Assembly (NCBI RefSeq): GCF_001465295.1
Contig: NZ_CP011035.1
Span: forward strand, 90,001 to 122,000
Length of the DNA: 32,000 bases
Direction of reading: 5' to 3'
DNA from: Pseudoalteromonas translucida KMM 520
GTDB lineage: Bacteria > Pseudomonadota > Gammaproteobacteria > Enterobacterales > Alteromonadaceae
The translations under genes and the position numbers were made by a program. The notes below the pieces were generated by a model. The model saw only the letters and a program-made list of their open reading frames with translations, ran no database searches and had not been told where the DNA came from. This document shows positions 2,994 to 11,435 of this stretch, one piece after another. Position 1 is the stretch's first letter; each line of letters starts with the position of its first letter.

Positions 2994-3599
2994 GTGTGTC
3001 TCGTGTCAAACTCCACACTTAGTTACTACAATCAAAACGCACAAAGCTTTAGTGACTCAACCCTAAATGTTGATATGTCAGTGCTGTATGCTGAATTTTT
3101 GCCACATGTTACCGAACATGGTCATATTTTAGATGCAGGCTGCGGCAGCGCCCGCGATGCTGCTTATTTTAAACAGCTTGGTTTTACTGTTAGCGCGTTT
3201 GATGCCAGCGAACAACTTGCTGCATTAGCAAGCAGCTACTTACAGCAACCCGTCGACGTTAAAACCTTCCAACAGCTAGATTGCGTTAATAAATACGATG
3301 CTATTTGGTGCTGCGCTAGCTTATTGCACGTGCCAAAAGCTGAACTTCTGCAGGTGTTTTTAAACCTACAAAATGCACTAAAACCCAATGGGGTTTTGTA
3401 TGTATCGTTTAAATATGGCGACACAGAGCGTGTGCATAATGGCCGTGAATTTACCGATTTAACTGAAAATGGTTTAACGCATTTACTTAGCCATACGCAG
3501 TTAAAAGCGATTAAACAATGGCAAAGTGTTGATCAGCGCCCAGAGCGCGAAAGTGAAGTTTGGCTAAATGCGCTGATTAAAGTAGTACACGTTTTATGA
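2994..3599 (+). CDS. class I SAM-dependent methyltransferase (small-molecule/Methyltransf_11-12-like, not a canonical DNA MTase)
   Basis: 201 aa. Motif I is ILDAGCGSARDA, followed by an acidic residue at the end of beta2 (VSAFDAS) and post-motif YDAIWCCASLLHV..LKPNGVLYVSF. There is no (D/N/S)PP(Y/F/W) or PCQ/ENV DNA-MTase motif. GTG start at 2994 (AGGAG at 2986-2990), or the in-frame GTG at 3003. The stop overlaps the next start (ATGA). Confidence 0.8.
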   Translation: MCLVSNSTLSYYNQNAQSFSDSTLNVDMSVLYAEFLPHVTEHGHILDAGCGSARDAAYFKQLGFTVSAFDASEQLAALASSYLQQPVDVKTFQQLDCVNKYDAIWCCASLLHVPKAELLQVFLNLQNALKPNGVLYVSFKYGDTERVHNGREFTDLTENGLTHLLSHTQLKAIKQWQSVDQRPERESEVWLNALIKVVHVL

Positions 3600-5134
3600 T
3601 TGGAGCAATGCAGCAACAGCTCGACTTTATTGCGTATATTCAACGAATGTTAGTTGAAGGGGACTTTAGCGCAACTTATAAGTTTGCCTTGCTGCATGCT
3701 ATTGCCGATGTATGTGTAGAACAGCCGTTATTGTCAGATCAAAGTGAATTAGTAATAGAGTTACCTACACTTGCCGATAAATTAATTACCTTATATTGGC
3801 ATCATGCAATGCCGTTTCCGTCAGAACATACCGGTGAAAGCGCTCTACTTTTGCAAAACACAGGCGCGCAATCAAAAGTGATTAGCGTATTGTTTGAATG
3901 CCAACAAAACAATATTCGTAATTTACGCCAGCTAAAGCAAAGTTCATTTTACAAACCGACTTTTAATGCAGCTATGGCAACATTGAAAAGTGGTCCGCTT
4001 TGGCGTTTACAAATACTTGCCAAACAAGAAGAATGCTTTTTATACCCGCACACTAAAAACACTAAATTCATTACCTTAAATGCAGGTATCGCCAGTTGCT
4101 TTAGACGTTTTTATGATTTAGTAGTGTACTTAGCTAAAAATGCGTGGCTGCAAAAAATTCAAAGTATAAAGTACAACCAAACACTTATTGGCCCGCAAAG
4201 CCAACTGCACGACTTTTTATTTGGCTTTGATCGTAACGCACTCACAAAAGCAAAACCTGTGTTAGTAGAGCTGCAATCAAACTCATGCTTTTATTGCCAA
4301 AAGCCAATGAAAAACGATATTGAGGTCGATCACTTTATACCGTTTTCCCGCTACGCAAACGATCTTGGCCATAATTTTGTGGCTGCGCACCGCACATGTA
4401 ATAACAATAAGCGCGACTTTTTAGCTGCGCAGCAACACCGTGAGCGTTGGCAAAAGCAAAACTTGGTTGTTAACAGCCAAATTATTAATAATGAGCTAAG
4501 TGCGTATTTTCACTGCGATGCAGATAAGTCACTCGCAGTAAGCAATTGGGCGTATCAGGTGGCACAAGCCAACAACGCTAAATTATGGCTTGGAAATAAA
4601 GACCATTTTGAGCAAGCAAAACCAACCGCCGATATAGTGGCTTTCCCGCAAGCAAAACAAACAGAGTTAAATCAAGTTGCAGAGCCTGTTATTAGCTTAA
4701 AATCAACTGATGATGCGCTAAAGCTGCCGTATTTCCCCAATATTAAAATTGCTTGTGGGCATTTTAAAACAGGGGATGAGAGCGACATAGAATTAATGGA
4801 TGCGCCACTTGGTGCAGGCAAGCTCGATCCGCAAGTACACTTTTTAGCGCATGCATGGGGTAACTCAATGAATGGTGGTAAAAATCCGATTAACGATGGC
4901 GATTTACTGTTACTTGAGCTTATAACACCCGATAAAGCGGGATCGCTACGCGGCCAAATTGTCGCGATTGAGCGAGATGATATAGGTGGTGACGGGCAGT
5001 ATTTACTGCGTAAAGTTAATAAATTACCTAATGGGCAATATGAGCTAATCGCTCAAAACCCAGATTATGAAGTAATGATTGCTGATGACAGCATGCGAAC
5101 ATTCGCACGGTTTAAGCAAGTGGTTGTGGAATAA
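3596..5134 (+). CDS. three-module protein: unassigned N-terminal domain + HNH nuclease motif + C-terminal S24 (LexA/cI/UmuD-like) peptidase domain
   Basis: 512 aa. The HNH motif is at nt 4286-4420: CFYCQKPMKNDIEVDHFIPFSRYANDLGHNFVAAHRTCNNNKRDF (CxxC..DH.IP..N..H..CN..K). The C-terminus aligns by eye with lambda cI/LexA: GNSM (Ser424, nt 4865-4867) ..INDGDLLLLE.. GQIVAIE.. YLLRKV (Lys473, nt 5012-5014) ..NPDY. The upstream IKIACGHF (Cys387-Gly388, nt 4754-4759) resembles the (A/C)-G self-cleavage site. Confidence 0.8.
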   Translation: MIGAMQQQLDFIAYIQRMLVEGDFSATYKFALLHAIADVCVEQPLLSDQSELVIELPTLADKLITLYWHHAMPFPSEHTGESALLLQNTGAQSKVISVLFECQQNNIRNLRQLKQSSFYKPTFNAAMATLKSGPLWRLQILAKQEECFLYPHTKNTKFITLNAGIASCFRRFYDLVVYLAKNAWLQKIQSIKYNQTLIGPQSQLHDFLFGFDRNALTKAKPVLVELQSNSCFYCQKPMKNDIEVDHFIPFSRYANDLGHNFVAAHRTCNNNKRDFLAAQQHRERWQKQNLVVNSQIINNELSAYFHCDADKSLAVSNWAYQVAQANNAKLWLGNKDHFEQAKPTADIVAFPQAKQTELNQVAEPVISLKSTDDALKLPYFPNIKIACGHFKTGDESDIELMDAPLGAGKLDPQVHFLAHAWGNSMNGGKNPINDGDLLLLELITPDKAGSLRGQIVAIERDDIGGDGQYLLRKVNKLPNGQYELIAQNPDYEVMIADDSMRTFARFKQVVVE

Positions 5135-5136
5135 TA

Positions 5137-5408
5137 ATTGTAGCTGCGATTTTATCTCGCGCTCATAAATTGTTTTTTGCGTGAAGATTTAAAGGGTTTA
5201 AAAACCTCTATTTGAGGTTTTATCGCCGTGGGATCACACTTTATCTTCAACTTACGTTATTGATGTGAACGTAACCAGCGTAGATAGGCCATCCATGGCC
5301 AAGCTACGCTTTTTACAGCATTGCCGAAAGGGATTTAGGTACTTGGAGTTTGTCGGGAACAAAATTCCACCATGCTGTAAGCACTCACCATCAACTAAAT
5401 TTAATTTT
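5137..5408 (-). repeat. structured intergenic repeat (family A), left copy, inverted relative to the copies at 10673-11775
   Basis: By-eye alignment of 5224-5405 with the reverse complement of 11455-11650 is near-identical over long blocks (gaacgtaa.cagcgtagataggccatccatggccaagctacgcttt; gggatttaggtacttgga.tttgtcgggaacaaaattcc). The outer part 5137-5223 parallels the reverse complement of the 11650-11775 tail (aattgtag...ctcgcgct). It contains the 32-nt two-tier hairpin at 5278-5309 and the hairpin at 5201-5221. Confidence 0.75.
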
Positions 5409-5544
5409 TGATTACATATAGTTAGGTGTATTTATTTATGAACGCATGCAGGAGTTGAAGTATATTGGTTAGTAATTGTTTATTAAGTATTAGTAAATTA
5501 CTTTCTCTTAGAACTTGTTATTTTTTAAAATTAAGGAATATTTT

Positions 5545-7470
5545 ATGTTAACGTGGATTATAGATGAGCTGACCCAAAGAAGCCGACGAGGTAGAAAGTC
5601 GTTGGTTAATAATTTTAAGGTTGAAGGCTGGGCTGATGGGTATATTTTTATACGTGAGTTATTCCAAAATATTTTGGATAACCGTATTAATCCAAGTGAA
5701 CCAGCAAAAGTATTTATAAACTTTGAAAAAATAAAAACTACCGAAGCAATTAAACAATATCAGATGCTCGTTAAGCCAATACATAAGCATTTAAATGCAT
5801 CAGAAACTAATTATTCTGGTATTTCCGAAAACCCTACAATGTTGGTTATAAGAGAAGAAGGGACTACTGGCTTTAAAGGTGAATATACTGATAGTGATGC
5901 AGAGAATAGCGATTGGGCAAACTTTTTTTTTGGGGAAGCATTAGAAGCTAAATCAGGGGCTAAAAACGGAAGGGCAGGCCAAGGAAAGATAATTTATTAC
6001 ATGTTGTCACAATTAAGGTGTGTCTTTTTAGTTACTAAAAGAGCTGAGGATGGAAAACTACTTTTAATGGGCAATATTAATTTATCAAGAACTCATAAAT
6101 GTGAAGATAAAAGTTACGAGACTTTTGGTTTTTGGGCAAATAATAAAAGTGAACAGCCTTTACCATGTGAAGATGAAGAGTATATTAAAGAGTTTTGTAG
6201 AAATTTCGGTGTAGATATATCTACATTGGATAGTGGAAACGTATATTTTATACCCCAACCATCAGAAGAATTAACAGAGAGTATTATTATTCAAGCATCT
6301 GTCCATGACTTCTATTTTCCTATTTTAAGAAACAGGCTTGCAATAGAAGTTGGCAGTAAACTTATAAATAAAAATAATCTTATCTCAATTGCAAAAGCAA
6401 ATTCACACAAGTTTACAGATAAATATGACTATGCTCCATCCTCTGAATTTTTAGACTTTGTAGAGCAGTGTATTAACTTAAAAATACTTTCACCTGTAAA
6501 AAATGTTCGGTGGAGTGGAAGTGAAGATAGTTTCTATAACATTTATGATGAGCAAACAATAAAGGAAATAAAGAAAAAATTTGACAAAGAAAAAATAGTA
6601 GCTATTCAGGTACCCATATATATTTCCGAAAAAAATGGAAATAACTATACTGAAAATCTTTATGTGTACCTTAAACGTTCTGAAGTAATTGAGCAAACAG
6701 AAGAAGCTTTTATCAGGACTGATTTATTTATAGCAAAAGAAAGACGATTAAGAATTCACACAGGTAAAAATGCTTTTGGTTTGGTTGTAGCTGATGAAAG
6801 AAGCCCTAATCTGGCTGAGTTCCTTGCAAATGCAGAAGAAGCTTCTCACTTAATATGGAGTGCGAAAGAGAGTAAGGTTGAGGATAAATATAAAAATATT
6901 AAGAATACTTTAGCTAAAGTCCGTCAATCATTACCTAAGTTATTCAATCTTTTACTGGATGATGAGGAAAGTGAGGATAGGGCATTTCTTGTAGGTTTAT
7001 TATCTGTTCCAGTTGATGAGAAACTCTCAAGAAAGAAAAAGAAAAAAAAGAAAAATATAGATAATAAAGGAGGCGAAAACCCAGCTCCTACAGAGCCTAT
7101 TCCTAGTAAATTGCCAATGATTATTCTTTCAGACCTTCCTGATGTGAATGGTTTTATGGTTTCCCCTACTGAGTATATCAAAGAGCAAGATGTGCCTTTC
7201 GAGATAGAGTTAACTGCAGCTTTTGATAATGTTTTATCGGAAGGTAATCCACTAAAGCTATATACTCATCTAGACTTTGACTTTTCAGCGTTGAATCAAT
7301 TTAAAGTATATGAGAATAATTGTGAAGTGATATCTGCTGACTTGAACAAAATATTTTTAAAAGTAAACAGCAATGATTTCAAGTTTTCTATATCAGGATT
7401 TAATAGCAGCGTACCATTGAAAGTCAAATACAGAATAACTCAAGAAAATGATAAGGATATTGAGCTATGA
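5545..7470 (+). CDS. GHKL/Bergerat-fold ATPase-like protein (MORC/Hsp90/sacsin-like N-terminal domain) with an unassigned C-terminal half
   Basis: The ORF is open from TTG at 5515. ATG at 5545 is preferred (AAGGA at 5532-5536, 8-nt spacer), giving 641 aa. N-box IRELFQNILDN (E-x3-N-x2-D, nt 5653-5682); G1-like box VIREEGTTGFKG (nt 5854-5880); G2-like box NGRAGQGKIIYY (nt 5968-6000). The stop overlaps the next start (ATGA at 7467-7470). Confidence 0.72.
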   Translation: MLTWIIDELTQRSRRGRKSLVNNFKVEGWADGYIFIRELFQNILDNRINPSEPAKVFINFEKIKTTEAIKQYQMLVKPIHKHLNASETNYSGISENPTMLVIREEGTTGFKGEYTDSDAENSDWANFFFGEALEAKSGAKNGRAGQGKIIYYMLSQLRCVFLVTKRAEDGKLLLMGNINLSRTHKCEDKSYETFGFWANNKSEQPLPCEDEEYIKEFCRNFGVDISTLDSGNVYFIPQPSEELTESIIIQASVHDFYFPILRNRLAIEVGSKLINKNNLISIAKANSHKFTDKYDYAPSSEFLDFVEQCINLKILSPVKNVRWSGSEDSFYNIYDEQTIKEIKKKFDKEKIVAIQVPIYISEKNGNNYTENLYVYLKRSEVIEQTEEAFIRTDLFIAKERRLRIHTGKNAFGLVVADERSPNLAEFLANAEEASHLIWSAKESKVEDKYKNIKNTLAKVRQSLPKLFNLLLDDEESEDRAFLVGLLSVPVDEKLSRKKKKKKKNIDNKGGENPAPTEPIPSKLPMIILSDLPDVNGFMVSPTEYIKEQDVPFEIELTAAFDNVLSEGNPLKLYTHLDFDFSALNQFKVYENNCEVISADLNKIFLKVNSNDFKFSISGFNSSVPLKVKYRITQENDKDIEL

Positions 7471-8270
7471 AATTGAGTGGAATTCATACAACAAATCCAA
7501 CAAAAAGACTAAAAATCCCAAGTGATAAAATTAGTATTACTTTACATACTGACTCAGATGGTAATGAAGCTTTTGAGTTAGACTTAGTATTATTATCAGA
7601 TGTTATATTGGGAATGAATTTACAAGATGTATCTGCAAAAGTTAGTTTATATGCTTATTCTTCTAATGCTGAGCAAGAGTATGAGCTAGGAACAGTATCA
7701 AGTTTTAAAAAGCCATCAAACCTATTACTAGAAGAGCTGGACTTTGCTTCACTTAAAGGGTTTAGGTTGATAATCTTTAATGATGCTCAACAGATAATCG
7801 CGAGTAATGAAACTCTTAAGTATCGCTCAAATGATGAGCCAGAAGATGAAAACTCACTTCTAAATGTAGAGCTTCTAGATCTTGGACAGAGAATTTGGAA
7901 AGTTAAACTTTCTGATGATACCAACCCTATTTTGGTATTAAACAAATCAATTCCAAACATTAAAAATGTAGTAAAAGACAATTCAGGTATTCTTGGCTGT
8001 ATACTTCCTGAACTAACAAAAGAATGTATTGTTCATTTAGCTTTTAATAAAGCCGCTGATATATATGATAAAAGTTGTTGGCAGTACAATTGGGGGAAGT
8101 TTTTGGAGTCATTCGGAATACAATTCGAAAATATACCTGACTTACTTGAAGAGCCTAGAGAGTATTACTCATTATTAAACACTATCGATGATTTATTAGA
8201 AAGTTACTGTTTTCAGAAAAAGTTTGCTAGTAAATTTGCAAAAGATATAGGAGTAGCAATAAATGATTAA
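7467..8270 (+). CDS. hypothetical protein, 267 aa (operon gene 2)
   Basis: Long ORF in an AT-rich, stop-codon-rich context. There is a 4-bp overlap with the upstream gene and an 8-bp overlap with the downstream gene. I recognised no motif. Confidence 0.68.
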   Translation: MKLSGIHTTNPTKRLKIPSDKISITLHTDSDGNEAFELDLVLLSDVILGMNLQDVSAKVSLYAYSSNAEQEYELGTVSSFKKPSNLLLEELDFASLKGFRLIIFNDAQQIIASNETLKYRSNDEPEDENSLLNVELLDLGQRIWKVKLSDDTNPILVLNKSIPNIKNVVKDNSGILGCILPELTKECIVHLAFNKAADIYDKSCWQYNWGKFLESFGIQFENIPDLLEEPREYYSLLNTIDDLLESYCFQKKFASKFAKDIGVAIND

Positions 8271-8997
8271 TATTTCCGTTTTTAATGAGTTCGGACTTCA
8301 AATCTTTAGAGAGTATATAGAAAGTAAAGGGCTTAAAGAGTTACCAAAAGATATTTTGATAGGTGAACAGTATTCGCAAGTTATTTCAAATGATATTTTT
8401 CTTGATGAGTCAAAAAGTTTTGAAGATAGATTAATGATGGCAAAGTACCTTGATGAAACTGTATCGGCAAATATCTTTGATTTATTCGATAATAAACCAG
8501 AATTTTGGAGTTGGATTTGTTGCTTATATATTGAACAAATAATTCAGAATGGTAAATTTAGTAAACCAGAACACTATATTTATATGCCTGGTAGAATAGT
8601 CTACAGACATTCTGTTGCAACGCCTGTAAGGCTATATAGGCAGCATGGCCATGATATTTCTAGAATGCTTATCAGTAATAAAATGCATGTGTGGGGCGAG
8701 CTAGCTGAGCAAATTAATGGGCGTCAATACTTAACTCGTTCAAAAAAGTTACTTAATTTCATTTGTAATTTATATTATGACAGAAATAAAGATAGCTTAA
8801 AGCCTAGTACTGGCTCTAAAATTTCTAGTAAATTATTAAAAAATGGAGAAAGATCAAGAGCTGGTGAAGGAGGGGCAAGAAGAGTTGCTTTACAGCTAAA
8901 AAGGTTATCACTTAATTATAAAGTAGATGCAATGGATGTAACTAGCATTAATTCCCTTTTACCTTCTGAATATGAAAAGTTTATAAGTAATAATTAA
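8263..8997 (+). CDS. hypothetical protein, 244 aa (operon gene 3), with a basic C-terminal segment
   Basis: AGGAG at 8246-8250 lies upstream of ATG 8263. The start overlaps the gene-2 stop (ATGATTAA). I recognised no motif. The C-terminal third is K/R-rich (KNGERSRAGEGGARRVALQLKR). Confidence 0.68.
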   Translation: MINISVFNEFGLQIFREYIESKGLKELPKDILIGEQYSQVISNDIFLDESKSFEDRLMMAKYLDETVSANIFDLFDNKPEFWSWICCLYIEQIIQNGKFSKPEHYIYMPGRIVYRHSVATPVRLYRQHGHDISRMLISNKMHVWGELAEQINGRQYLTRSKKLLNFICNLYYDRNKDSLKPSTGSKISSKLLKNGERSRAGEGGARRVALQLKRLSLNYKVDAMDVTSINSLLPSEYEKFISNN

Positions 8998-9004
8998 GTA
9001 GAGG

Positions 9005-10546
9005 CTAATCAAGCCCTCTTTCTGAAAGGGCAATGATTACCCCCCCAATCTGCTGTGCCAAATACGGTGGCACAGCATTACCTACCTGCACATACTGGTT
9101 AGTTCTCGTCCCTTCGAAAATATAATTATCAGGAAATGTTTGTATACGTGCGGCTTCACGTACGCTTAAACTTCTGCACTGCTGTGGGTCATAATGAACA
9201 AAGTAATGCCCATCTTTTGAGATATGGCTTGTGACTGTCGTTGCATATTTATTGGCAACTTGAACCCTAAATCGATCTGAATGTGTTCCAGTATTCCAAT
9301 TAGCATGGGCCGGGGCTAGTTCTTGTGGGAAATGACGAGATTTAGGTGATAAACCTTGGATTTTTGCATATGCTGCACAGTATGAGTAACGTAGTAAGTC
9401 ATCAACCATATGGCCTCTAGTTTCATGATTTAGAACTACTTTAAGGCTTGGATCGATATACCAAGATTTTAAAGGCTCTGGCATGATAGGAGCTTTGTTA
9501 CTTAAAGCTTTCTCTTTTCTTGTTAAGCCTATTTTTGGTAAAAGGTTCAAGCTATTTGCTGATTCTTCATTAAATTGCTTTGTCAGAATTACTTTTAATT
9601 TAGCTGCATTTTTAGTAACAGCTGTTTCCCAATCTTTTGCATTATCTTTTTGTTTTGAAAAGCCGCTGCGTAAATTTGGTAAGTCACTAATAACTTGTTC
9701 TACGGTAACTTGGTGTTCGCATAGCTTTAGTGTTTCTGGGGTTGCTTTAATATCCTCACGTACACCTAGTAAAATTACACGATGCCTAGCTTGAGGTATA
9801 CCGTATTGCTCACAACGAATTAAAAAATCAGCAGAATCTTTGTATTGTGGGTCTTCTGGATTGTCAGCATCAACGACTAATGAATAGACTTTATATTTTG
9901 GAATTTTTTTGTGTTTTGTTACTGAGCCAGGGCTGCGCAAATCTTCTAATATTTGCGGAAACATGACTTGGCCGTTCACTTTTGCCGTAAGTATCCCTCT
10001 TACATTTTCCATCACAAAAATATCAGGCTTCGCTAGGCAAATTACTTCTAAGTACTCTTTGTATAAAAAGTGGCGAGCATCATCTTCTGCTATGTAACTT
10101 TTGTTACCAGCATTTCGTGAACGTCCTGCAAGTGAATAGGCTTGGCATGGAGGGCCGCCGATTAGAACTTTTGGGCCTTTATGCTTTTTGACGAGTTCCT
10201 TTATGCGTTTATGGATTAGCTTATTGTCTTTGCCTAGTTCTTTTGCACCATTTAGAGTTTCTTTATTGGCTTCTGTTGCAACATCAGGATGGAGCTTGAA
10301 TAACTCATCTCTTGTAATTTCACCATGTAGATAACGATAGTAATTATTTAATGACTGAGATTTGGTTTTGAGTGTACGATAAAACGCACGAGTTGTTAAA
10401 GTTTGATGAGCATGGACATCCTTCTCAACAGAAATACCTATTTGAAAAGGTAATTTACCATCAGAAGTTTGAGCCGCTGAAATTCCTTCCCCAAGCCCAC
10501 CAGGGCCAGCGAATAAATCAATGACCAGAATTTCACCGTTTACCAT
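9005..10546 (-). CDS. dcm: DNA (cytosine-5)-methyltransferase
   Basis: All canonical C5-MTase motifs are present in order: I DLFAGPGGLGEG, II SVEKD..A..T, IV GGPPCQAYSLAGR, VI FVMENVRGIL, VIII QARHRVILLGV, IX REAARIQTFPDNYIFEG, X VGNAVPPYLA. 513 aa. Confidence 0.93.
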   Translation of the reverse strand: MVNGEILVIDLFAGPGGLGEGISAAQTSDGKLPFQIGISVEKDVHAHQTLTTRAFYRTLKTKSQSLNNYYRYLHGEITRDELFKLHPDVATEANKETLNGAKELGKDNKLIHKRIKELVKKHKGPKVLIGGPPCQAYSLAGRSRNAGNKSYIAEDDARHFLYKEYLEVICLAKPDIFVMENVRGILTAKVNGQVMFPQILEDLRSPGSVTKHKKIPKYKVYSLVVDADNPEDPQYKDSADFLIRCEQYGIPQARHRVILLGVREDIKATPETLKLCEHQVTVEQVISDLPNLRSGFSKQKDNAKDWETAVTKNAAKLKVILTKQFNEESANSLNLLPKIGLTRKEKALSNKAPIMPEPLKSWYIDPSLKVVLNHETRGHMVDDLLRYSYCAAYAKIQGLSPKSRHFPQELAPAHANWNTGTHSDRFRVQVANKYATTVTSHISKDGHYFVHYDPQQCRSLSVREAARIQTFPDNYIFEGTRTNQYVQVGNAVPPYLAQQIGGVIIALSERGLD

Positions 10547-10672: not shown

Positions 10673-10925
10673 AAGCTGAGATAATTCCCCGTGATCACGC
10701 CCGAAATTGAAATAATGATGAGTAATTTACAGCATGGATGCTGTTGAAAAGCGTAGTTTGGCCACGGATGGCCTATCTACGCTGATTACGTTCATATCAT
10801 TAATTTGAATTGAGGAAGTAGTGTGATCCTCGGGGCGCCGTGGGGTTCCAAGGGGCGGTCGGCGGTATCCACCCCTTGGTTGCCATCGCCAACGCGATAT
10901 GTATAAATAATTTGCAATTAAAAAA
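10673..10925 (+). repeat. structured intergenic repeat (family A), right copy R1 (internally shorter)
   Basis: It shares with R3 the blocks gctgaga.aa..cc-gtgatcac.cccgaaattgaa.taatgatgagtaat, the 32-nt hairpin (10751-10782), gattacgttcatatcattaatt, gtgtgatcctcggggcgc, hairpin 2 (10848..10879), ggttgcc.tcgccaacgcga and tttgcaattaaaa. Confidence 0.75.
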
Positions 10926-10995: not shown

Positions 10996-11149
10996 TAAAG
11001 CCACTCCCTGTTTGCGAACATTCAGTTTACTAAAATACGGTACAGCTACAAGTATTAATCGTCTAAGTTACTAGTAATTAAGTATAAACGTGTGAGTTAA
11101 GTACTAGGCGAGCGAGTAATTAAAGGATGATGCTAAGAAACCCTCCCCT

Positions 11150-11435
11150 TCAACTTCACCTGAAAACACATAATTAATGAGTAATTACCTCGCATGGAGG
11201 CGAGGAAAGCGATGCTTGCACATGGATGTGCTTTCATCGCGTTTACGTTCATATTAATTTAGTGTTTAAAGATAAGTGAAATTGAGGGGCGCTGTGGGGT
11301 TCCAAGGGGCGGTCGGCGCTTTAATTTGGTAAAGAGCGCCCCTTGGTTGCCGTCGCCAACGCGATATATAACTAATATTTGCAATTAAAAGCTCAAGCGC
11401 GAGGTAAACTCCCGCCTACAATTTGAAGGCTGACG
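11150..11435 (+). repeat. structured intergenic repeat (family A), copy R2 (sequence-divergent, structure-conserved)
   Basis: It has the same module order as R1/R3. Its hairpin 1 (11219-11250, gcgatgcttgcacatggatgtgctttcatcgc) differs in both arms yet still pairs. Hairpin 2 is at 11302-11346. The tail gcgcgaggtaaactcccgcctacaat is the reverse complement of a family-B module. Confidence 0.7.

What the first reader, a model, noticed from the sequence alone, without database searches (positions are those of the whole stretch)
3596..5134. HNH nuclease fused to an apparently active LexA/lambda-cI-type self-cleaving (S24) domain: a possible DNA-damage-gated nuclease
Seen in the sequence:
- A central HNH motif with a CxxC zinc knuckle, the DH catalytic pair and N...H..CN..K (nt 4286-4420).
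- A C-terminal region that aligns residue-by-residue with lambda cI and LexA catalytic domains: GNSM (identical to the lambda cI Ser149 motif) at Ser424, a Lys473 in the LRK context 49 residues later, the hydrophobic DGDLLLLE strand, and ...NPDYEVM.
- About 35 residues upstream of the serine, IKIAC-GHF resembles the (V/I)-A-(A/C)|G self-cleavage site of LexA (Ala-Gly) and UmuD (Cys-Gly).

Established knowledge: S24 domains of LexA, UmuD and cI autocleave when stimulated by RecA-ssDNA filaments.

Inference: cleavage would separate the N-terminal HNH module (about 385 aa) from the dimerising S24 domain. Nuclease activity or localisation would then be switched by the SOS signal or by phage-induced DNA damage. 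I do not know of a characterised HNH-S24 fusion. The N-terminal 220 aa (..DFSATYKFALLHAIADVCVE..) are unassigned and could be the DNA- or modification-sensing module.
Basis: partly seen in the sequence, partly recalled or inferred. Interest (0 to 1): 0.75.

Follow-up and report, generated by a model that had tools for sequence, protein, structure and literature searches.

The report
HNH nuclease with LexA-like self-cleaving module
A Pseudoalteromonas gene does fuse an HNH DNA-cutting enzyme to a LexA/UmuD-type self-cleaving domain; the same unusual domain (arginine where the catalytic lysine should be) also sits on an unrelated family of restriction-like nucleases that share the same small partner methyltransferase, which points to an unstudied way of linking DNA-cutting enzymes to the cell's DNA-damage signal.

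Summary
The fusion is real. ORF 3596-5134 (512 aa) has an intact HNH motif and a C-terminal Peptidase_S24 domain. Its model matches only lambda cI, LexA and UmuD' structures.

Three independent alignments put invariant Arg472 on LexA Lys156, and K473 is variable. Ser424 and the Ala-Cys387|Gly388 site (aligned to the LexA and UmuD scissile bonds) are essentially invariant.

- The gene is the second gene of a conserved cassette with a small class-I SAM methyltransferase (ATGA overlap).
- The ~350 aa S24-less form is the commoner and inferred ancestral form; S24 is a swappable 3' module (26 of 80 species).
- The same Ser/Arg S24 subtype sits in SauUSI-like PLD-helicase nucleases, with the same methyltransferase adjacent or fused.

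Best reading: a cis-proteolytic, probably RecA*-responsive switch that detaches S24 from a stand-alone-type nuclease. This is untested. Whether cleavage turns the nuclease on or off is unresolved, and the Arg may slow or abolish cleavage. No publication describing it was found. I rate it a new variant of a known kind, of moderately high interest.

The parts
2994..3599 (+). Partner gene: small (201 aa) class-I SAM-dependent methyltransferase; its stop overlaps the nuclease start codon (ATGA at 3596-3599)
   Evidence: Pfam Methyltransf_25/23/12/11 and TehB. ATGA overlap read directly. A homologue sits directly upstream in 74 of 80 species loci, and a divergent small MTase in most of the rest. 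The same family is fused to, or adjacent to, PLD-helicase-S24 proteins. It has no DNA-MTase motifs. The nearest structure is the uncharacterised 3e23.
3596..5134 (+). Whole ORF: N-domain, HNH, linker and S24 module (512 aa)
3596..4240 (+). N-terminal domain (aa 1-215), strongly conserved, fold unassigned
   Evidence: No Pfam or NCBIfam hit. There are 947 representative clusters, mostly ~350 aa N-domain+HNH proteins. The AF2 model has pLDDT 68 and is helical. Foldseek against the PDB found no hit (best E 1.2).
4286..4417 (+). HNH (beta-beta-alpha-Me) nuclease motif, aa 231-274
   Evidence: Pfam HNH and HNH_4 above cutoff. Weak PADLOC and NCBIfam hits to Cas9, PtuB and IscB HNH regions only. Catalytic and zinc residues are invariant.
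4418..4630 (+). Conserved C-terminal extension of the nuclease (aa 275-345), shared with S24-less forms
   Evidence: Invariant W285, N289, C307, W318, A319, Y320, A323, W331 and F338 in both forms. tblastn homology of short forms ends at residue 341-363.
4631..4720 (+). Variable linker (aa 346-375); junction where S24 is present or absent
   Evidence: Indel-rich, unconserved columns in A1. The L031 short form diverges here, while the downstream DNA is conserved.
4721..5131 (+). S24 (LexA/UmuD/lambda cI-type) module including its cleavage-site strand (aa 376-512)
   Evidence: Pfam. Profile hits to UmuD and LexA. HHalign 97%. AF2 pLDDT 84.8 and Foldseek top 21 hits all cI, LexA or UmuD'.
4754..4759 (+). 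Cys387-Gly388: predicted scissile bond
   Evidence: Aligned to UmuD Cys24|Gly25 and LexA Ala84|Gly85. A-C-G is invariant in 91/91 fusion sequences, 76/76 other modules and 105/105 PLD-helicase proteins. The residues just after it (388-393) are the only low-confidence internal stretch of the model.
4865..4867 (+). Ser424: predicted nucleophile (G-N-S-M)
   Evidence: Aligned to LexA Ser119 and UmuD Ser60. Conserved in 90/91, 110/110 and 105/106 sequences.
5009..5011 (+). Arg472: occupies the position of the catalytic lysine (LexA Lys156)
   Evidence: Arg in 89/89 fusion sequences, 117/120 other modules (Lys in 3) and 103/104 PLD-helicase proteins.

Best explanation
The gene encodes the nuclease of a conserved two-gene cassette: a small class-I SAM methyltransferase plus an N-domain-HNH nuclease.

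In this lineage the nuclease has gained a C-terminal LexA/UmuD/lambda-cI-type S24 module that carries its own cleavage loop.

I propose that the module is a cis-acting proteolytic switch:
1. When the S24 core docks on a RecA-ssDNA filament, the loop ...K-I-A-C387|G388-H-F... is held in the active site.
2. Ser424 attacks the Cys387-Gly388 bond.
3. The 125-aa S24 core is severed from a 387-aa fragment. That fragment is essentially the stand-alone nuclease found in sister species.

The general-base lysine is replaced by an invariant arginine. Spontaneous autodigestion should therefore be very slow, which would make the switch tightly dependent on its trigger.

I lean slightly to a 'safety catch' direction, in which the uncleaved S24 restrains the nuclease and cleavage frees a stand-alone-type enzyme. 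The direction is not established.

Shown here: the fusion, the fold, conservation of the site and the Ser, the Lys-to-Arg change, the modularity, the methyltransferase partnership, and recurrence of the module on a second nuclease family.

Inferred: that cleavage happens, that RecA* is the trigger, and what cleavage does to nuclease activity.
For: - S24 fold and register.
- The best structural matches include cI, LexA and UmuD bound to RecA filaments (8gmu, 8trg, 8gmt).
- Near-absolute conservation of A-C|G, F390 and Ser424 across about 300 sequences in two unrelated nuclease families. This is hard to explain unless the loop engages the active site.
- Site-to-Ser spacing matches LexA and UmuD.
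- The cleavage product corresponds to the natural S24-less nuclease of 339-381 aa.
- S24 behaves as a discrete add-on module, with at least 6 gains or losses on the nuclease tree and a clean swap in L031.
- The same module sits on PLD-helicase nucleases with the same methyltransferase adjacent or fused. That pattern fits a portable regulatory domain for restriction-like effectors.
- No SOS box lies upstream in 74 loci, so any damage coupling would have to be post-translational.
- Established knowledge: the LexA Ser119/Lys156 dyad, the cleavable and non-cleavable loop conformations, and RecA* as co-protease (PMC3834820).
Against: - The catalytic lysine is replaced by arginine in more than 97% of this subtype. 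LexA K156A is non-cleavable (PMC3834820). From memory, LexA K156R is severely impaired at neutral pH.
- No experimental data exist for any member.
- RecA*-contact residues were not assessed.
- S24 is frequently lost, so it is dispensable for the cassette's core function.
- The methyltransferase lacks DNA-methylase motifs, so the restriction-like logic of the cassette is itself unproven.
- Nothing here shows which way cleavage changes nuclease activity.
Confidence: 0.4

Rival explanations
1. Off switch, as built-in restriction alleviation. The S24 module supplies something the nuclease needs, such as dimerisation for double-strand cutting, or (in the PLD-helicase relatives) the tether to the DUF3427 reader. 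RecA*-stimulated self-cleavage would remove it and could expose the fragment to degradation. The nuclease would be silenced while the damaged chromosome is repaired, when unprotected self sites arise.
For: - In the PLD-helicase-S24-DUF3427 proteins the cut would separate the nuclease-motor from its presumed target-recognition domain (DUF3427 as reader: PMC3141236, PMC6765204).
- LexA and cI are inactivated by the same cleavage, because the DNA-binding part is separated from the dimerising S24 domain (established knowledge).
- Proteolytic inactivation of restriction after recombination or repair is a documented need (EcoKI/ClpXP; PMC11109961).
Against: - The released HNH fragment equals the naturally occurring stand-alone nuclease, which is presumably functional.
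- About 970-aa PLD-helicase forms end with S24 and have no reader to detach.
- There is no evidence that S24 dimerises here, or that the fragments are degraded.
Confidence: 0.25
2. Non-cleaving S24. With Arg at the base position the domain is proteolytically dead. It would serve as a dimerisation domain and/or a RecA-filament docking domain that brings the HNH nuclease to RecA-coated ssDNA. The Cys-Gly loop would be retained as a bound pseudo-substrate.
For: - Lys is replaced by invariant Arg.
- From memory, non-cleavable LexA variants bind RecA* stably; PMC3834820 reports stable binding of the K156A C-terminal domain.
- From memory, phage P1 Ref is an HNH nuclease that cuts DNA in a RecA-filament-dependent manner, so RecA-targeted HNH cutting has a precedent.
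Against: - Ser424 and the small residues at the scissile bond are almost invariant. A pure docking or dimerisation role would not be expected to constrain the nucleophile.
- Arg rather than a random residue suggests that a basic group is still needed there.
Confidence: 0.2
3. Self-cleavage occurs but is unrelated to RecA*. It could be a constitutive maturation step, or be triggered by another cue such as the nuclease's own DNA substrate, the methyltransferase, or a phage factor. Another residue (for example invariant Lys429 in S-M-N-G-G-K, or His389 next to the scissile bond) would act as the base.
For: - Covariation within the subtype: members with the canonical Lys have G-G-N and C-G-A-F, whereas Arg members have G-G-K429 and C-G-H389-F.
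- K429 is conserved in 90/91 and H389 in 89/91 fusion sequences.
Against: - Lambda cI also has a Lys in the equivalent loop and still uses Lys192 (alignment).
- The covariation rests on a single phylogenetic split.
- All characterised close structural relatives are RecA*-responsive.
Confidence: 0.1

Closest known systems
LexA / UmuD / lambda cI (MEROPS S24 autoproteolytic domains, RecA* co-protease)
   Same: Same fold (Foldseek probability 1.00, TM up to 0.76). G-x-S-M nucleophile motif. Internal Ala/Cys-Gly site 35-37 residues upstream of the Ser. A Cys-Gly bond as in UmuD.
   Different: The general-base Lys is replaced by invariant Arg. The cargo is an HNH nuclease, not a helix-turn-helix domain or a polymerase accessory arm. 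The subtype carries signature motifs of its own (LPYFPxLKIACGHFKTG, SMNGGK, QYLLR-V-K).
SauUSI-type type IV restriction enzymes (PLD nuclease, SF2 helicase, DUF3427 reader)
   Same: A sister family with this exact S24 subtype has the SauUSI architecture plus S24, in the order PLD, helicase, X, S24, then DUF3427 when present (PMC3141236).
   Different: The window protein has none of these domains and shares only the S24 module and the partner methyltransferase. SauUSI itself is described without an S24 domain or a methyltransferase partner.
Restriction alleviation of EcoKI by ClpXP
   Same: Proteolytic control of a restriction nuclease, linked to recombination or repair so as to avoid self-cutting (PMC11109961).
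   Different: In EcoKI a trans-acting protease degrades HsdR. Here the proposed protease is a cis-acting domain of the nuclease, and the direction of control is unknown.
AmaNI-like HNH restriction enzymes with a fused caspase domain
   Same: A protease domain fused to an HNH restriction-type nuclease. The authors speculated that it regulates activity by cleavage (PMC6765204).
   Different: A different protease fold (caspase versus S24), a different position, and no link to RecA.
Phage P1 Ref (RecA-dependent HNH endonuclease; recalled from memory, not checked here)
   Same: An HNH nuclease whose action is coupled to RecA filaments.
   Different: Ref has no S24 domain and no self-cleavage. No homology was tested.
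Septu PtuB / Cas9 HNH domains
   Same: Weak HNH-region similarity (PADLOC E about 1e-6 to 1e-7).
   Different: The similarity is limited to the HNH region. There is no PtuA ATPase partner and no RuvC. This is not a member.

Membership tests
Peptidase S24 (LexA/UmuD/cI autoproteolytic domain) | S24 beta-fold | tested here: met
   Pfam PF00717 at 35 bits against a cutoff of 23.3. AF2 pLDDT 84.8, and the top 21 Foldseek PDB hits are all cI, LexA or UmuD'. HHalign 97%.
Peptidase S24 (LexA/UmuD/cI autoproteolytic domain) | Serine nucleophile in G-x-S-M | tested here: met
   Ser424 aligns with LexA S119. Conserved in 90/91, 110/110 and 105/106 sequences.
Peptidase S24 (LexA/UmuD/cI autoproteolytic domain) | Lysine general base (LexA K156 / UmuD K97 / cI K192) | tested here: not met
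Arg472 occupies this column by three methods and is invariant (89/89).
Peptidase S24 (LexA/UmuD/cI autoproteolytic domain) | Internal Ala/Cys-Gly cleavage site at the right distance from the Ser | tested here: met
   I-A-C387|G388 aligns with LexA V-A-A84|G85 and UmuD V-Q-C24|G25. Spacing is 37, against 35 and 36. A-C-G is 100% conserved.
Peptidase S24 (LexA/UmuD/cI autoproteolytic domain) | Self-cleavage at alkaline pH or with RecA* | not testable with these tools
   Needs biochemistry.
HNH endonuclease | Beta-beta-alpha-Me motif with catalytic His, Asn and metal ligand, plus a CxxC zinc pair | tested here: met
   Pfam HNH and HNH_4 above cutoff. C231, C234, D245, H246, N260, C268, N269 and K272 are invariant, and H265 is conserved in at least 90%.
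HNH endonuclease | DNA cleavage activity | not testable with these tools
   Needs biochemistry.
Classical restriction-modification system | Adjacent, co-oriented methyltransferase and nuclease genes | tested here: met
   ATGA overlap. The MTase is directly upstream in 74 of 80 loci, with a divergent MTase in most of the rest.
Classical restriction-modification system | The methyltransferase is a DNA methyltransferase (amino-MTase [DNS]PP[YFW] motif or C5 PCQ/ENV motifs, and a target-recognition domain) | tested here: not met
   No such motif in the window MTase, in 76 cassette homologues or in the fused versions. Only generic class-I and TehB-like profile hits. At 201 aa there is no room for a recognition domain. 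The substrate is unknown.
SauUSI-like type IV restriction enzyme | PLD nuclease + SF2 helicase + DUF3427 | tested here: not met
   None of these domains is present in the window protein. They occur only in the sister family that shares the S24 module.
Septu (PtuA/PtuB) | PtuB-type HNH next to a PtuA ATPase | tested here: not met
   Only weak HNH-region hits. The neighbours are a methyltransferase and a PDC-M33A-like gene, not PtuA.
SOS regulon member | LexA box (CTGT-N8-ACAG) in the promoter region | tested here: not met
   No perfect box in the window. There are 0 perfect boxes upstream of the cassette in 74 loci, no more than in random windows.

The most novel reading that the evidence does not exclude
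A previously unrecognised class of restriction-like systems. It would consist of a small non-canonical SAM methyltransferase plus a nuclease, either N-domain-HNH or PLD-helicase with or without DUF3427. The nuclease would be wired post-translationally to the RecA* damage signal through a specialised Ser/Arg S24 module. RecA filaments would then directly license DNA cutting (a damage- or phage-triggered nuclease) or cancel it (built-in restriction alleviation). Arg at the base position would be an evolved device to suppress leaky autodigestion.
Probability: 0.35. Interest if true: 0.8.

Novelty: new variant of a known kind. Interest (0 to 1): 0.65.

Why it matters
S24 self-cleavage is the core switch of the SOS response, but it is characterised only on repressors and on UmuD. 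If it also controls nucleases directly, that would be a new output of RecA*: protein-level control of DNA cutting with no transcription step. It bears on two open problems: how bacteria stop restriction or defence nucleases from attacking their own chromosome during repair, and how defence is triggered by infection-induced DNA damage. The natural Lys-to-Arg variant, conserved across hundreds of sequences, is also a ready-made test of what the general base contributes to RecA*-dependent versus spontaneous cleavage. The system is small (two genes), has natural S24-less controls in sister species, and can be tested directly.

Tried and rejected
- **N-domain identity.** No Pfam, NCBIfam or PADLOC family. 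The AF2 model has only moderate confidence (pLDDT 68). Foldseek against the PDB gave nothing (best E 1.2, TM below 0.25). It remains unassigned.
- **Homology between the N-domain and the 'X' domain of the PLD-helicase proteins.** Two short motif resemblances prompted the test, but HHalign gave 0.4% probability. Rejected.
- **Transcriptional SOS control.** No LexA boxes beyond chance in the window or upstream of the cassette in 74 loci.
- **Phage origin.** No homologue in 50,697 phage records.
- **Classical R-M reading.** The methyltransferase lacks DNA-MTase motifs, and its nearest structure is uncharacterised.
- **Literature.** Searches for an HNH-S24 fusion, for S24 in defence nucleases and for LexA K156R found nothing usable. 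Slilaty and Little 1987 is not held. The SauUSI paper contains no reader-deletion experiment that would fix the direction of the switch.
- **P0046 context.** The look-up found no record.
- **Active-site geometry.** The Ser424-Arg472/Lys429 distances could not be measured, because model coordinates are not exposed.
Full report
**1. The observation**

The window has an ORF at 3596-5134 (+) of 512 aa.
- Pfam places Peptidase_S24 on aa 384-498 (E 1.3e-8, 35 bits, cutoff 23.3). It places HNH and HNH_4 on aa 231-274, both above cutoff.
- G-N-S424-M and I-K-I-A-C387-G388-H-F are present.
- The closest database proteins (97% identity) are from Pseudoalteromonas.

**2. Register of the S24 active site**

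A profile of the C-terminal module aligned to full-length UmuD places LPYFPNLKIAC|GHF on UmuD FPLFSDLVQC24|G25F.

Against wild-type E. coli LexA the same profile aligns S424 with S119, R472 with K156, K473 with R157 and V474 with L158.

HHalign against a LexA/UmuD/cI alignment gives the same register at 97% probability. It also puts I-A-C|G on LexA V-A-A84|G85.

Three divergent members of the same S24 subtype carry the canonical Y-V-L-K-R-[VI] lysine in the column where this clade has Arg.

| Position | 91 unique HNH-fusion sequences | 123 same-subtype modules from other proteins | PLD-helicase proteins |
|---|---|---|---|
| A-C-G | 91/91 | 76/76 | 105/105 |
| F390 | 91/91 | 76/76 | 105 F, 3 Y |
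| S424 | 90/91 | 110/110 | 105/106 |
| R472 | 89/89 | 117/120 (Lys in 3) | 103/104 |
| K473 | 48/89 | 15/120 | Lys not among the commonest residues (L 33, V 31, R 15, T 6) |

The family has Ser plus Arg at the dyad positions.

LexA K156A is non-cleavable (PMC3834820). From memory, K156R retains only weak cleavage shifted to higher pH. I could not retrieve that paper.

**3. Fold**

An AF2 model of the module has pLDDT 84.8 and pTM 0.81. Its only low-confidence internal stretch is residues 388-393, directly after the putative scissile bond.

Its top 21 PDB matches are all lambda cI C-terminal domain, LexA or UmuD', at probability 1.00 and TM up to 0.76. They include the RecA-filament complexes 8gmu, 8trg and 8gmt.

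**4. S24 is an optional module on an older nuclease**

The homologue list splits into ~510 aa fusions and 339-381 aa forms that end just after the HNH region. Some short forms are up to 82% identical to the query over the shared part.

An exhaustive search with the N-domain finds 947 representative clusters, mostly ~350 aa.

In 80 species-level genome loci, 26 have S24. On a neighbour-joining tree of the nuclease part, S24 presence needs at least 6 state changes, and the inferred root state is S24-less.

L031 is a short form nested among fusions. It is homologous through residue 341 and then ends in a short alternative tail. The DNA after its stop matches the window's post-gene intergenic region at 88-98% identity, so this is a clean module swap.

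Cleavage at C387|G388 would therefore regenerate something very like the natural stand-alone nuclease.

**5. The partner methyltransferase**

ORF 2994-3599 encodes a 201-aa class-I SAM methyltransferase. Its stop overlaps the nuclease start as ATGA.

A homologue lies directly upstream, on the same strand, in 74 of 80 loci. In most of the remaining Shewanella loci, and in the weakly scoring Vibrio, Shewanella and Psychromonas loci, a more divergent small SAM MTase takes its place.

It has no amino-MTase or C5-MTase catalytic motifs. The same holds for 76 cassette homologues and the fused versions. It matches only generic and TehB-like profiles. Its nearest structure is the uncharacterised 3e23.

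So the cassette looks like a restriction-modification pair in layout, but the methyltransferase fails the test for a DNA methylase. Its substrate is unknown.

In more distant homologues the partner is a HIT-family protein, either fused or encoded upstream with a 4-bp overlap. In one Aromatoleum plasmid an SOS-response-associated peptidase gene follows directly.

**6. The same S24 subtype on a second nuclease family**

Searching with the S24 profile found the module after a different domain and before DUF3427.

Locus L008 has the same methyltransferase family directly upstream of a PLDc_2 + ResIII + Helicase_C gene. That gene runs, through an evident frameshift, into this S24 module.

A search with the reconstructed protein found many intact proteins:
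- about 970 aa: PLD, helicase, S24;
- about 1090 aa: the same plus a C-terminal DUF3427;
- about 1290 aa: the methyltransferase fused at the N-terminus.

The fused methyltransferase is the same family as the window's (E 5e-63).

In three genomes with unfused proteins (Thiodictyon, Arhodomonas, Thiohalomonas) the small methyltransferase gene sits directly upstream.

PLD-helicase-DUF3427 is the architecture of the type IV enzyme SauUSI, where DUF3427 is the presumed modified-base reader (PMC3141236, PMC6765204).

Methyltransferase, nuclease and Ser/Arg-S24 thus form a recurrent triad across two unrelated nuclease types.

**7. Context**

In the window the cassette is followed by two features:
- a low-GC (31-35%) three-gene operon whose first gene matches the defence candidate PDC-M33A;
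- a convergent Dcm/DrmMII-like C5 DNA methylase.

Related cassettes sit next to helicase/MZB genes, BREX, toxin-antitoxin modules, integrases, caspase/CHAT and HEPN genes.

No SOS box precedes the cassette. The family is absent from phage records.

**8. Mechanism**

The near-absolute conservation of the nucleophile and the scissile Ala-Cys|Gly, in about 300 sequences on two different cargo proteins, argues that the loop still engages the active site. It also argues that the module is a portable regulator.

The most economical reading is a cis-proteolytic, RecA*-responsive switch, with Arg suppressing leaky autodigestion.

The direction is open:
- The product equals a natural stand-alone nuclease, which favours release or activation.
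That would parallel restriction alleviation (PMC11109961).
- A proteolytically inert docking or dimerisation role remains possible because of the Arg.

None of this has been tested experimentally.

**9. Novelty**

Automatic annotations already label these proteins 'S24 family peptidase', 'HNH endonuclease' or 'helicase/HKD nuclease/LexA'. I found no paper that describes or tests the fusion.

It is a new variant of a known kind: an S24 switch on nuclease cargo, with a non-canonical dyad.

Noticed in passing
window 5236-5341 (-), 10677-10843 (+), 11137-11297 (+); L010, L011, L020, L028, L031, L034, L036, L060, L089, L040: TwoAYGGAY RNA (RF01731) elements. In 9 of 10 related Pseudoalteromonas loci, and in one Marinomonas locus whose cassette is 82% identical, a full-scoring copy (46-78 bits) lies 200-350 bp downstream of the HNH gene on the opposite strand, and nowhere else in those 13-kb loci. 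The window has a truncated sub-threshold copy at that syntenic spot (39.6 bits, gathering score 43) and two full copies about 5 kb further on. Together these bracket the low-GC island. The element is absent from the cassette loci of the other genera sampled: Rheinheimera, another Marinomonas species, Catenovulum, Bowmanella, Hahellaceae, Lacimicrobium, Vibrio, Shewanella and Psychromonas. It could mark an insertion hotspot or travel with the cassette.
   Followed up: partly
window 5515-8997 (+): A low-GC (31-35% against about 41%) operon of three overlapping ORFs (651, 267 and 244 aa). The first matches the PADLOC defence candidate PDC-M33A (E 2e-19). The other two have no family match. It is probably a horizontally acquired defence candidate.
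   Followed up: partly
window 9005-10546 (-): A 513-aa C-5 cytosine DNA methyltransferase (Pfam DNA_methylase E 3e-45; PADLOC DrmMII E 6e-98), convergent with the low-GC operon. It may belong with that operon as its modification component.
   Followed up: no
window ~7033-7060 (+): An A-rich tract (AAGAAAGAAAAAGAAAAAAAAGAAAAA) encodes a run of lysines inside the PDC-M33A-like gene. It is a possible slippage-prone site.
   Followed up: no
L091 5678-7782 (Aromatoleum aromaticum EbN1 plasmid 2); P0256, P0318: In distant N-domain-HNH homologues a HIT-family enzyme replaces the methyltransferase as the upstream partner (4-bp overlap) or is fused N-terminally. In Aromatoleum an SOS-response-associated peptidase (SRAP) gene follows directly. 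This is a second, independent hint of a link to DNA damage.
   Followed up: partly
L008 ~6850-6900: The PLD-helicase-S24 gene in this metagenome contig is split by a frameshift. The tail of the 728-aa ORF is out-of-frame, Arg-rich sequence. It is either an assembly error or a pseudogene. Intact orthologues exist.
   Followed up: yes
P0214, P0228, P0232 (alignment A3): A small divergent branch of this S24 subtype keeps the canonical Lys (Y-V-L-K-R-[VI]). It has G-G-N instead of G-G-K and C-G-A-F instead of C-G-H-F. This coordinated three-position difference could mean the catalytic machinery was rearranged in the Arg clade.
   Followed up: no
L023: A record titled Flavobacterium sp. W21_SRS_FM6 carries a fusion 64% identical to the gammaproteobacterial proteins, with the same methyltransferase. 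This could be horizontal transfer, or a mislabelled or contaminated assembly.
   Followed up: no
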